Origin: Escherichia phage Nernie | Length of the DNA stretch: 64,000 nt | Direction: 5' to 3' (one strand) | Sequence record: PP925835.1 | Shown here: piece by piece, positions 61,236 to 63,650 of the stretch | Numbering within the stretch: the stretch's first letter is position 1 | How the letters are laid out: the number at the start of each line of letters is the position of its first letter | Translations under genes and position numbers: made by a program | The notes under the pieces: generated by a model | Database searches by the model: none | The model's input: the letters and a program-made list of their open reading frames with translations, nothing else | What the model was told of the DNA's origin: nothing

Positions 61236-63650
61236 TTAAGCATTGTTGACAGTAACAAAAGTAACAGGATTCAGAGCTTTAATTTGTGTATTCTCTGCTG
61301 TAGGTGTTACAATTGGATCTGCAATATCTATTGTGTACAAACTATTTGTCACATATGTAGCACGTGCTATAGTTGTCACAAGATCGCCGCCATTTGCACC
61401 TGCACCTGGAATAACAATCTTAGTACCTGCTGCTTTAGCGTAGCCATTACTAGCCCAGTTTAAAGCATTAGACTGTAGATAGGTTTGACCTGTAACAGTT
61501 GCTTTTATTTTCTCGTTGGCGCTAAAGAAAGCACCACCTACTGTAACAACATGTTTTTTACCGCTTGCACAATGAATAACTGTTCCAGTAGGGAATTCAC
61601 GCCCACCTGGGAATTCATCATAAGTTGTAAAATATTGTTCAGAAATAGTAGTTAAAACTGGCCCACGATGACCTGTACCATCAACAGCAGTTGGAACACC
61701 AAAGTTATTTCCAACCTGATCGCAACGATCAGTGTAGATTTTAGCAAAAGAAACTGTTGTTTCATCTCCGCTAAGTGCTGTACATCCTACCCACTTCATA
61801 TACGTGAATTGGCTGCGAGTATAGAAACCGCCACCACTTCCTTCTCCGCTTCCGTGTTGACCAATAAAGTCAATACTACGGCAACGAATATTATTAAAGG
61901 TAGAGCTAGATGGTAGCCCACGCCATTTAAAAACATTACAATTGATATTACTAACAATTGTAGAGTTTTCCCAGTCATCTGATCCAGATGTTGCAATCTC
62001 AATTGAAGATTCTGGAATATCCAAATTCTTAATTGTAAAGTTAATTGGTGGCCCCGCATATCTTCCACTGTTAACACCCCAGTCAATAAAGACCATGCGT
62101 GTTGAAACAGACGGATCATTAAGCAGATAACCAGTTAAACCATCAACTTCAAAATCTTGGCATCCGTATAATGCAACACCACAAGTAGTTAAACCTGTAC
62201 CTGTTGAAACTGCTGTGTTAGGATAAACTTCATTATCACGTATTGTGAAGTTTTTACCCATTTCAACGTGTAAACATTGACGGCAATTGTAAACCCTATT
62301 CCCAACGATACTGAAATTACGTACATATTGTGAATCAGGAACATCAACACCATATGGGCCACTACCTGCTACACCAATACCAATACCCCAGTTTGCCCCT
62401 TGTCCAGAAGCATCTACGTTAGCAATGTGGTTATTCTCGATAACCAAACCTTCAGTGTAGTGTTTTTGAACTACGTTAAGTTCAATAGCATCACCTTTAA
62501 TATCATGAATGTAGTTGTTAGAGTAACGCCCGTAGGTCATTACTTCTCCAGTACCTTGTTGCAGGATCGCATATTTACAACCATACATTTCGTTGTAACT
62601 GAAGTCCAACGTACCTTCACTTGTCATTGCTTGCATTAAGAATGCTGCTGTAGATGTTGCGTTGGAGAAGATATTACGATAGAATCGGCAATCACCACCT
62701 AACATCTTAACATAACATTTTTCAAAGCGAACGTTTTCCATCCAACAGGACACAGTAGAAATCATTGTTCCACCGTTACCAGTGAATGTACCACCATACC
62801 AACGAATACCAGACATAGCAATTGAGCTTGTGAATCTATAATTCTTATCTGCACGTACTTGAATGTTATTCGTGTTAGCGAAAGTAATGGTTTTTAAAAT
62901 TGCTTGGGTATCATCGGTAACTCCATCACCAATTGCACCAAACTGCTCAGGCGTTACAAAGTATTGAGCTTGTAACAGGTTGCCTCCAGATGGAAGACCA
63001 ACCATTGCTGCACCAGTGGTAGATGACAAAAGGTTTTTCTCTACGTAAGAAGTAGAGGCTGTTGTTTTACCAATAAAAGCAAACAATTTGTTAGGTAGAC
63101 CAGTAGACGGATCTAAACCTAATGGTTCTGCCAGAATAATTTTACTATCTTTGATAGTAAATGCTTCACCTTGAATCTGAATTACACCGTTAATGGTGAC
63201 AATAGCATTATCAAAGATATAAGGAGGACTGATTTCTGTTTCATATCCTGTAGCACCTTTAAAATACCAAGGATACACATCTGAAGCTAACTGTTCAGTT
63301 TTAAGAGCGTACAGAGTCCAGTTACTATCTCCTACAGGTGTACCCTGCATAGGTACAGGGTTAGCAGTAGTGGCAGATGGGGCATAATAGTATCCACTCA
63401 AGATACCGTTTTCAAAATAACGTAACTGGTTAAATACAGTTTCAGTTGATCCTGCTGACCAAGCAACAGGACTCTTAAAGAAGAAGTTATCAACAAGTGC
63501 TTTACGCAGTGTAGGTATTAAACCTGTTTCGGTTTCTACAGTTGCTGTAGCATCCCCATTAATAACATCATGCATCTGGTTAGACGAGAATATAACCAGA
63601 TCAACACCTTGTTCTAGTGTCGTAGCAGGATATGTTGGAAAATTCGCCAT
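61236..63650 (-). CDS. tailspike protein with pectate-lyase-like right-handed beta-helix (putative depolymerase)
   Basis: FVTPEQFGAIGDGVTDDTQAI motif typical of the Pectate_lyase_3 N-terminal cap; repetitive Asn/Gly/Val-rich beta-helix-like sequence; 804 aa. Confidence 0.65.
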   Translation of the reverse strand: MANFPTYPATTLEQGVDLVIFSSNQMHDVINGDATATVETETGLIPTLRKALVDNFFFKSPVAWSAGSTETVFNQLRYFENGILSGYYYAPSATTANPVPMQGTPVGDSNWTLYALKTEQLASDVYPWYFKGATGYETEISPPYIFDNAIVTINGVIQIQGEAFTIKDSKIILAEPLGLDPSTGLPNKLFAFIGKTTASTSYVEKNLLSSTTGAAMVGLPSGGNLLQAQYFVTPEQFGAIGDGVTDDTQAILKTITFANTNNIQVRADKNYRFTSSIAMSGIRWYGGTFTGNGGTMISTVSCWMENVRFEKCYVKMLGGDCRFYRNIFSNATSTAAFLMQAMTSEGTLDFSYNEMYGCKYAILQQGTGEVMTYGRYSNNYIHDIKGDAIELNVVQKHYTEGLVIENNHIANVDASGQGANWGIGIGVAGSGPYGVDVPDSQYVRNFSIVGNRVYNCRQCLHVEMGKNFTIRDNEVYPNTAVSTGTGLTTCGVALYGCQDFEVDGLTGYLLNDPSVSTRMVFIDWGVNSGRYAGPPINFTIKNLDIPESSIEIATSGSDDWENSTIVSNINCNVFKWRGLPSSSTFNNIRCRSIDFIGQHGSGEGSGGGFYTRSQFTYMKWVGCTALSGDETTVSFAKIYTDRCDQVGNNFGVPTAVDGTGHRGPVLTTISEQYFTTYDEFPGGREFPTGTVIHCASGKKHVVTVGGAFFSANEKIKATVTGQTYLQSNALNWASNGYAKAAGTKIVIPGAGANGGDLVTTIARATYVTNSLYTIDIADPIVTPTAENTQIKALNPVTFVTVNNA

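What the first reader, a model, noticed from the sequence alone, without database searches (positions are those of the whole stretch)
61236..63650. Beta-helix tailspike: likely polysaccharide depolymerase in addition to the esterase fibre
The Pectate_lyase_3-like cap (FGAIGDGVTDDT) and long Asn/Gly/Val-rich beta-rich sequence indicate a right-handed beta-helix depolymerase. Together with the esterase fibre and the collagen-like fibre, the phage encodes three distinct receptor-binding or receptor-modifying proteins in a row, suggesting a complex adsorption apparatus aimed at capsule or O-antigen.
Basis: partly seen in the sequence, partly recalled or inferred. Interest (0 to 1): 0.45.

Follow-up and report, generated by a model that had tools for sequence, protein, structure and literature searches.

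The report
Known phi92-type colanic-acid-degrading tailspike

Summary
The ORF at 61236..63650 (minus strand, 804 aa) is real and holds the quoted motif FGAIGDGVTDDT at aa 237-248. It is 798/804 identical to phage phi92 gp150, the "colanidase tailspike" solved as PDB 6E0V/6E0W. The window is a Justusliebigvirus (phi92-like myophage) and keeps the phi92 gene order gp149-gp150-gp151. An AlphaFold2 model is confident for aa 230-804. Published work reports that gp150 hydrolyses a Glc-Fuc backbone linkage of colanic acid, the stress-induced exopolysaccharide capsule of E. coli. Some details need correcting. The cap motif falls below the Pfam threshold for the pectate-lyase-like family and is not conserved across the colanidase family. 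The conserved core is D387, E390 and E463, within motifs shared with the host's WcaM. The enzyme is reported as a hydrolase, not a lyase. The neighbouring "esterase" is only a sub-threshold call. Where gp150 and gp151 sit on the virion is still unsettled in the literature. Verdict: already known, low interest.

The parts
61236..63650 (-). Whole gene: orthologue of the phi92 gp150 colanidase tailspike, 804 aa plus the stop codon (61236..61238)
   Evidence: ORF list. 798/804 identical to phi92 gp150. PHROG 6117 E 4e-270. PDB 6E0V E = 0.
63273..63650 (-). N-terminal virion-anchor domain (aa 1-126), shared with tail fibres of rV5-, PVP-SE1- and phiTE-like myophages
   Evidence: aa 12-126 match the phiTE baseplate chain 9CUY_g 'putative tail fiber protein' at E 8.8e-18. 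PHROG 4549 tail fiber E 1.5e-24. tblastn finds 39-55% identity over aa 6-126 in many myophage tail fibre genes. This domain is absent from the crystal construct and has low pLDDT in the monomer model.
63051..63299 (-). Second N-terminal module (aa 118-200), similar to the N-terminal parts of podophage tail fibre or adaptor proteins
   Evidence: Weak PDB matches to 23sh_r tail fiber gp9 (E 7e-4), 8es4_G Gp44 and 7y22_e tail adaptor. PHROGs 2710 and 11393. Proteus podophage tail fibre/adaptor genes show 44-51% identity over aa 118-199.
62907..62942 (-). Cap motif FGAIGDGVTDDT (aa 237-248) at the entrance of the beta-helix
   Evidence: Translation check. Sub-threshold PF12708 (E 0.037) and PF12218 (E 0.005) matches start here. 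The model has strand 242-246 and cap helix 248-261. The motif is not conserved across the family.
61671..62945 (-). Right-handed parallel beta-helix catalytic domain (about aa 236-660)
   Evidence: AF2 model pLDDT is mostly 85-97. Foldseek top hit is 6E0V (TM 0.82 normalised to the target), followed by AlgE4/AlgE6, HK620, Sf6, Det7 and CBA120 beta-helices.
61983..62579 (-). Most conserved core (aa 358-556), homologous to host WcaM, holding candidate catalytic residues D387, E390 and E463 (inferred)
   Evidence: NCBIfam WcaM E 1.6e-28. BLASTP against E. coli K-12 WcaM gives 32% identity, E 1e-26. D387 and E463 are invariant, and E390, N392, W421, R457, Q458 and H461 are each kept in 31 of 32 homologues.
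61275..61541 (-). C-terminal tailspike Ig-like domain (aa 704-792)
   Evidence: Pfam PF20745 TSP_Ig-like E 1.9e-14, 54.1 bits against a 27.9-bit cut-off. Confident beta-rich model region.
61195..61235 (-). Intergenic spacer to the next gene: hairpin AAAGGGGCgaaaGCCCCTTT, then an AAGGAG ribosome-binding site and the GTG start of the gp151 orthologue
   Evidence: Read directly from the sequence. The simple terminator scan did not call this hairpin.
59233..61194 (-). Context: gp151 orthologue, 653 aa, with a tailspike-type N-terminal domain, collagen-like Gly-X-Y runs and repeated modules
   Evidence: 642/653 identical to phi92 gp151. Pfam Tail_spike_N E 3.6e-21 and Collagen E 7e-8. The N-terminus matches CBA120-type tailspike N-domains in the PDB.
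56365..59193 (-). Context: 942-aa protein with a Big_2 Ig domain, a weak SASA-like esterase region and a head-spike-fibre-like C-terminal domain
   Evidence: Pfam Big_2 E 1e-13; SASA only E 0.031 on the whole protein and 0.004 on the sub-sequence, below the cut-off. NCBIfam GTA_spike_fiber E 2e-20. PDB 6TB9 head spike fiber E 1.5e-13.

Best explanation
The gene encodes the colanidase tailspike of a phi92-like (Justusliebigvirus) E. coli myophage. The protein is modular. An N-terminal anchor (aa 1 to about 200) mounts it on the virion, most likely at the baseplate periphery. A right-handed parallel beta-helix (about aa 236-660) binds and cuts colanic acid, the Rcs-induced exopolysaccharide capsule of E. 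coli and its relatives. An Ig-like domain closes the C-terminus. By hydrolysing a Glc-Fuc linkage in the backbone, the virion-borne enzyme tunnels through the slime layer so that other fibres can reach their receptors on the cell surface. Shown here: sequence identity, fold and synteny. Taken from the literature on the 99%-identical protein: the enzyme activity and the linkage cleaved. Inferred: the catalytic residues (D387, E390, E463), trimer formation, and attachment to the baseplate through the N-terminal domain.
For: 798/804 identity to phi92 gp150 over the full length, and to the crystallised fragment 6E0V/6E0W. The exact sequence is already in public collections: P0001, 100% identity, in a cluster of 180 members. 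The 8-kb neighbourhood is 99.3% identical to Justusliebigvirus alia, and many relatives annotate the gene as 'colanidase tailspike' or 'colanic acid degradation'. Gene order matches phi92 gp149-gp150-gp151. The AF2 model is confident for aa 230-804 and matches 6E0V best, then other beta-helix tailspikes. PMC13450770 states that gp150 is a colanic acid-degrading enzyme that hydrolyses the beta-1,4 Glc-Fuc linkage, citing Xu et al. 2025. The distant homologue NST1 colanidase (31% identity over aa 208-799) is described as well characterised, and a colanidase-bearing phage produces halos and lowers high-molecular-weight colanic acid (PMC4179555). The N-terminal aa 12-126 are homologous to a fibre chain built into the phiTE baseplate (PMC11972413).
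Against: No enzymology was or could be done on this exact variant, which differs from phi92 gp150 at six positions (I282V, V403I, S528N, D559A, T676A, A711D, written window residue then phi92 residue). The primary papers (Schwarzer 2012, Xu 2025, Firozi 2010, Kim 2015) were either not held in the library (Schwarzer 2012, Firozi 2010, Kim 2015) or not looked up (Xu 2025), so activity is cited second-hand. The 2026 cryo-EM study could not fit predicted gp150 into any fibre density, so its position on the virion is unproven. The N-terminal 228 residues are not reliably modelled.
Confidence: 0.95

Rival explanations
1. It is a polysaccharide lyase acting by beta-elimination, as the 'pectate lyase-like' cap and the closest non-self structural neighbours (alginate epimerase/lyase modules) might suggest.
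For: Sub-threshold match to PF12708 Pect-lyase_RHGA_epim. The best non-self Foldseek hits are the AlgE6/AlgE4 mannuronan epimerases and an alginate epimerase/lyase.
Against: The literature reports hydrolysis of a Glc-Fuc backbone linkage. From established knowledge, beta-elimination needs a uronic acid at the cleaved linkage, and the colanic acid backbone is made of neutral Glc and Fuc. The Pfam hit is below threshold and covers only the cap. The family's conserved residues are Asp and Glu, as in beta-helix glycosidases.
Confidence: 0.03
2. The six substitutions, or the different phage background, have changed specificity, so this spike targets another capsule or an O-antigen rather than colanic acid.
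For: Tailspike specificity can change with few mutations in other systems (general knowledge). No assay exists for this variant.
Against: All six changes are conservative or lie outside the invariant core motifs. 41 phage records carry a version at least 99% identical, so it is a conserved allele rather than a diversifying one. Homologues at only 31-57% identity are still annotated as, or described as, colanic acid-degrading.
Confidence: 0.02
3. The protein is mainly a non-catalytic adhesin or a decoration located away from the baseplate, such as a head or neck fibre, and depolymerisation is incidental.
For: The 2026 cryo-EM work could not fit gp150 into the fibre II density. The adjacent proteins resemble head spike fibres: gp151 resembles Pa223 gp52 according to PMC13450770, and the 942-aa protein matches the GTA head spike fibre 6TB9.
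Against: The N-terminus is homologous to a fibre N-terminus built into the phiTE baseplate map, and to tail fibres of many rV5-like phages. Catalytic activity is reported. Acidic residues are strictly conserved across the family.
Confidence: 0.05

Closest known systems
Phage phi92 gp150, colanidase tailspike (CBY99579.1; PDB 6E0V and 6E0W)
   Same: Same length (804 aa), 798/804 identical, same flanking genes (gp149 upstream, gp151 downstream), same fold. It is the orthologue.
   Different: Six substitutions: I282V, V403I, S528N, D559A, T676A, A711D (window residue then phi92 residue). None falls in the invariant core motifs.
Colanic acid-degrading proteins of jumbo E. coli phages (e.g. SP27, ph0011, E9.1) and of Phapecoctavirus phages
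   Same: Same catalytic beta-helix plus C-terminal domain. Jumbo phages share 57% identity over aa 189-801. Phapecoctavirus proteins share 44% over most of the length, including the anchor.
   Different: Different N-terminal anchors suited to a different virion. The Phapecoctavirus versions are about 1,000 aa and carry an extra Tail_spike_N domain.
Phage NST1 colanidase (HM214492; Firozi et al. 2010) and the J8-65 tailspike
   Same: Homologous catalytic module, 31% identity over aa 208-799. Described as a well-characterised colanidase whose phage gives expanding halos on mucoid E. coli.
   Different: The J8-65 tailspike is on a podophage; NST1 is held only as a 2.4-kb record. They lack the myophage anchor and are much more divergent.
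E. coli WcaM (b2043), last gene of the colanic acid biosynthesis cluster
   Same: 32% identity over aa 360-556, E 1e-26. Shares the motifs GDAIE-NV, NWGIGIG-AGS and CRQ-HVE-GK, which contain the phage family's invariant Asp and Glu.
   Different: A 464-aa host protein with no virion anchor and no TSP_Ig-like tail. gp150 scores 99.5 bits against a 794.6-bit equivalog cut-off, so it is a homologue of the domain and not a WcaM. RefSeq annotates WcaM only as a 'putative colanic acid biosynthesis protein'.
Classical beta-helix tailspikes (Sf6, HK620, Det7, CBA120 TSP1-4) and AlgE4/AlgE6 epimerase A-modules
   Same: Right-handed parallel beta-helix fold. Foldseek probability 1.0 for most of them (0.98-0.99 for some HK620 and CBA120 chains), E 3e-8 to 1e-4.
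   Different: Only 9-15% sequence identity and low TM-scores (0.2-0.55). Different substrates and active-site positions. The resemblance is at fold level only.

Membership tests
phi92 gp150-type colanidase tailspike (PHROG 6117; PDB 6E0V) | Full-length sequence homology to gp150 | tested here: met
   798/804 identical with no gaps. PHROG 6117 E 4.4e-270 covering aa 172-801.
phi92 gp150-type colanidase tailspike (PHROG 6117; PDB 6E0V) | Right-handed parallel beta-helix catalytic domain followed by a C-terminal Ig-like domain | tested here: met
   The AF2 model (pLDDT 85-97 for aa 230-804) matches 6E0V_A with TM 0.82 (normalised to the target), E 1e-83. PF20745 scores above its cut-off.
phi92 gp150-type colanidase tailspike (PHROG 6117; PDB 6E0V) | Conserved core motifs with invariant acidic residues (GDAIELN; HVE) | tested here: met
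   D387 and E463 are kept in 32 of 32 homologues and E390 in 31 of 32.
phi92 gp150-type colanidase tailspike (PHROG 6117; PDB 6E0V) | Position at the 3' end of the late structural gene block, between gp149 and gp151 | tested here: met
   Same order as in phi92 and in phage Paula.
phi92 gp150-type colanidase tailspike (PHROG 6117; PDB 6E0V) | Hydrolysis of colanic acid | not testable with these tools
   Reported for the 99%-identical phi92 protein (Xu et al. 2025, cited in PMC13450770). Not assayed for this variant.
phi92 gp150-type colanidase tailspike (PHROG 6117; PDB 6E0V) | Trimeric virion-bound spike | not testable with these tools
   Only a monomer was modelled. The position on the virion is unresolved in the 2026 cryo-EM study.
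Pfam PF12708 Pect-lyase_RHGA_epim (formerly Pectate_lyase_3) | Score at or above the family's gathering threshold (27 bits) | tested here: not met
   14.3 bits, E 0.037, aa 236-296 only, and no stretch passes on its own. Some homologues carry a precomputed PF12708 hit.
NCBIfam WcaM equivalog (TIGR04004 / NF007517) | Score at or above the equivalog cut-off (about 800 bits) | tested here: not met
   99.5 and 98.4 bits over aa 358-551 only. This is a homologous domain, not an orthologue.
Polysaccharide lyase (beta-elimination) | Unsaturated uronate product; a uronic acid at the cleaved bond | not testable with these tools
   The literature reports hydrolysis at a Glc-Fuc bond. No lyase family matched above threshold.

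The most novel reading that the evidence does not exclude
The N-terminal 126 residues are homologous to the baseplate-embedded N-terminus of a phiTE tail fibre. [quoted passage not shown] If gp150 docks in the same way, it would be the still unassigned 'fiber II' of phi92-like virions, and engagement with colanic acid would be mechanically coupled to the contraction trigger. A related side reading is that host WcaM, which keeps the same invariant Asp and Glu, is itself a colanic acid glycosidase.
Probability: 0.3. Interest if true: 0.3.

Novelty: already known. Interest (0 to 1): 0.08.

Why it matters
It matters little as a discovery. The protein, its structure and its activity are published, and dozens of deposited phage genomes carry and annotate the same gene. 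It is useful as a positive control, because the first-stage reader identified a beta-helix depolymerase correctly from raw sequence. [quoted passage not shown] Two open questions remain around this protein: where it sits on the virion, and which residues are catalytic.

Tried and rejected
1. I checked whether the N-terminal anchor is shared with other fibre genes of the same phage. tblastn of aa 1-230 against the window and against the phi92 gp141-gp177 region found only the gene itself, so paralogous anchors are not detectable at this sensitivity.
2. I checked whether the neighbouring 942-aa protein is a relative of the NGR-glycan deacetylase fibre gp142. BLASTP found no significant similarity (E 0.09), so I rejected this.
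3. I tried to strengthen the 'esterase' call by scanning the sub-sequence aa 286-524 against Pfam. SASA stayed below its cut-off (17.2 vs 24.8 bits).
4. I tried to read three of the primary papers: Schwarzer 2012 (PMC3457257), Firozi 2010 (PMC3465957) and Kim 2015 (PMC4292498). None is held. I did not look up Xu 2025. Activity data are therefore cited through papers that cite them.
5. PMC12695924 on Stephanstirmvirinae contained nothing on colanidase.
6. The promoter and terminator scans gave counts no higher than in shuffled sequence, so they add nothing beyond the hairpins read by eye.

Full report
OBSERVATION. The window has an 804-aa ORF at exactly 61236..63650 on the minus strand. Its ATG overlaps the stop codon of the upstream 113-aa gene (TAATG), and an AAGGA ribosome-binding site lies 9 nt upstream. 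Downstream there is a 41-nt spacer. It holds the hairpin AAAGGGGCgaaaGCCCCTTT, an AAGGAG site and the GTG start of the next gene. The quoted motif FGAIGDGVTDDT is at aa 237-248, nt 62907..62942. The composition is rich in Gly, Thr, Ala, Val and Asn.

IDENTITY. phmmer against PDB sequences gives E = 0 (1424 bits) for aa 180-804 against 'Bacteriophage Phi92 gp150', entries 6E0V and 6E0W. I fetched the phi92 genome (FR775895). Its gp150 is annotated 'colanidase tailspike', and the full-length proteins are 798/804 identical with no gaps. The differences, written window residue then phi92 residue, are I282V, V403I, S528N, D559A, T676A and A711D. PHROG 6117 'colanic acid degradation' matches at E 4.4e-270. 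Megablast of window 56000-64000 finds 90 phage records. The best is Justusliebigvirus alia at 99.3%, and many records annotate this gene as 'colanidase tailspike' or 'colanic acid degradation'. tblastn finds 41 records with a copy at least 99% identical. The exact protein sequence is already in the public protein collection: P0001, 100% identity, in a cluster of 180 members. Gene order is that of phi92 and phage Paula: gp149, gp150, gp151. The downstream 653-aa protein is 642/653 identical to gp151.

I aligned 32 homologues that share the catalytic module and predicted the structure with AlphaFold2. Mean pLDDT is 74. This splits into a reliable part, aa 230-804, where most 10-residue blocks score 85-97, and an unreliable part, aa 1-228, below 50. 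The reliable part has one helix (aa 248-261) just after the motif and then about 50 short strands. Foldseek against the PDB puts 6E0V_A first: 'Apo crystal structure of the colanidase tailspike protein gp150 of Phage Phi92', E 1e-83, TM 0.82 normalised to the target. Next come AlgE6/AlgE4 epimerase A-modules, an alginate epimerase/lyase, and the tailspikes of HK620, Sf6, Det7, CBA120 and several Klebsiella and Acinetobacter phages. From established knowledge, those are right-handed parallel beta-helices. The structure is a beta-helix, so the finding is not refuted.

ARCHITECTURE. The protein has four parts.
- aa 1-126 form an anchor domain. They match chain g of 9CUY, the phiTE baseplate, at E 8.8e-18. 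They also match PHROG 4549 and the first ~115 residues of tail fibres in rV5-, PVP-SE1- and phiTE-like myophages at 39-55% identity.
- aa 118-200 resemble N-terminal modules of podophage fibre or adaptor proteins.
- aa ~236-660 form the beta-helix.
- aa 704-792 form a TSP_Ig-like domain, PF20745, at 54.1 bits against a 27.9-bit cut-off.
The catalytic module recurs behind different anchors in jumbo phages (57% identity), Phapecoctavirus (44%), SSE121-like phages (37%) and the NST1 colanidase (31%). Conversely, the anchor recurs in front of other C-terminal domains; for example, P0068 and P0069 carry a PF13472 hit. This is ordinary tailspike modularity.

CONSERVED CORE. Across the 32 homologues, D387 and E463 are invariant. 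E390, N392, W421, R457, Q458 and H461 are each kept in 31 of 32. The only other acidic positions that are at least 85% conserved are D439 and D775. I infer that the catalytic acids are among D387, E390 and E463, but I could not test this. The same motifs occur in E. coli K-12 WcaM, the last gene of the colanic acid cluster: 32% identity over aa 360-556, E 1e-26. The NCBIfam WcaM models match at 99.5 and 98.4 bits, far below their ~800-bit equivalog cut-offs. gp150 therefore shares a domain with WcaM but is not a WcaM. D242 is a gap in 23 of 32 sequences, and D246 is Asp in only 7. PF12708 scores 14.3 bits against a 27-bit cut-off, and PF12218 scores 17 against 26.3.

MECHANISM. [quoted passage not shown] 2025, Int J Biol Macromol 303:140646. 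A 2017 review lists gp150 as a colanidase tailspike, following Schwarzer et al. 2012. PMC11126041 uses 6E0V as the structural reference for colanidases. PMC4179555 shows the biology with a distant homologue. [quoted passage not shown] The best explanation is therefore a virion-borne glycosidase that clears the colanic acid layer so that other fibres can reach their receptors. On K-12 strains, the main receptor of phi92-like phages is reported to be the NGR glycan, recognised by the gp142-type deacetylase fibre. Colanidase would therefore matter mostly on mucoid or stressed cells. That last step is my inference.

WHAT IS NOT SETTLED. The 2026 cryo-EM study assigns fibre III to gp147 and infers that fibre I is gp143. 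It could not fit predicted gp150, gp151, gp140 or gp15 into the fibre II density, and it notes that gp150 had earlier been speculated to be fibre II. The phiTE paper models the long tail fibre N-terminus (residues 14-171) as a helical bundle plus a globular domain. [quoted passage not shown] Chain 9CUY_g is 793 aa and aligns at residues 15-130, so it is probably that fibre, though this is my inference. The homology supports a baseplate location for gp150 but does not prove it.

NEIGHBOURS: 'THREE IN A ROW'. gp151 has a Tail_spike_N domain (E 3.6e-21), collagen-like repeats (E 7e-8) and matches to CBA120-type tailspike N-domains. PMC13450770 reports that it resembles a head spike protein of phage Pa223. 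The 942-aa protein has a Big_2 domain. Its SASA esterase match is below the cut-off: E 0.031 for the whole protein, and E 0.004 with 17.2 bits against a 24.8-bit cut-off for the sub-sequence. Where I would expect the SASA Ser motif GQSN (from memory, not tested), it reads GQDN. Its C-terminal domain matches the Rhodobacter GTA head spike fibre. The cluster of three surface-directed proteins is real and fits the published multivalent adsorption apparatus. However, the esterase activity and the tail location of the two neighbours are not established.

VERDICT. The gene is the orthologue of a structurally and biochemically characterised protein. Novelty: already known. Interest: low.

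Noticed in passing
window 56365..59193 (-); L001 16321..17983: The 942-aa gene downstream of gp151 is intact in this window, as it is in phage Paula. In phi92 it is decayed into gp152 (aa 1-198) and gp153 (aa 335-628). The matching pieces lie in three different frames, there are deletions of about 218 nt and 958 nt, and the C-terminal domain (aa 629-942) is missing.
   Followed up: partly
window 56365..59193 (-), aa 286-524: The 'esterase' region matches Pfam SASA only below threshold (17.2 vs 24.8 bits). It reads GQDN (aa 293-296) where I would expect the SASA nucleophile motif GQSN (from memory), and it keeps QGEND at aa 394. It may be an inactive or non-canonical esterase.
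   Followed up: partly
window 56365..59193 (-), aa 674-886: The C-terminal domain of the 942-aa protein matches the head spike fibre of the Rhodobacter capsulatus gene transfer agent (PDB 6TB9, E 1.5e-13; NCBIfam NF048003, E 2e-20, above its cut-off). PMC13450770 also says gp151 resembles a head spike protein. Either protein may therefore decorate the head rather than the tail.
   Followed up: no
L003 4503..5897 (E. coli K-12 wcaM) vs window 61983..62579: Host WcaM shares the phage colanidase core motifs, including the residues equivalent to invariant D387, E390 and E463. This suggests WcaM could itself act on colanic acid.
   Followed up: partly
   Followed up: yes
GenBank records MG065656 (Campylobacter phage C3), MG065682 (A112b) and others: About 20 records labelled 'Campylobacter phage' with host C. 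jejuni match this protein. At least four also match at the DNA level over the 8-kb region, and C3 carries a gp150 copy that is 99.4% identical. The listed A112b match is only to the N-terminal anchor, at 43% identity. The host labels look doubtful.
   Followed up: no
window 50433..53012 (+); L001 21336..24650: The T7-like DNA polymerase ORF is 859 aa in the window, the same length as in phage Paula. The phi92 annotation (gp159) spans 3315 nt, about 1104 aa, so phi92 has either an insertion or a different start.
   Followed up: no
window 59212..59229 (-), 56338..56361 (-), 61195..61235 (-): Each of the three fibre genes is followed by a GC-rich hairpin. Only the last one (56361..56338: 10-bp stem followed by a T-run) looks like a full intrinsic terminator, and it sits where the minus-strand late genes meet the plus-strand genes.
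   Followed up: partly
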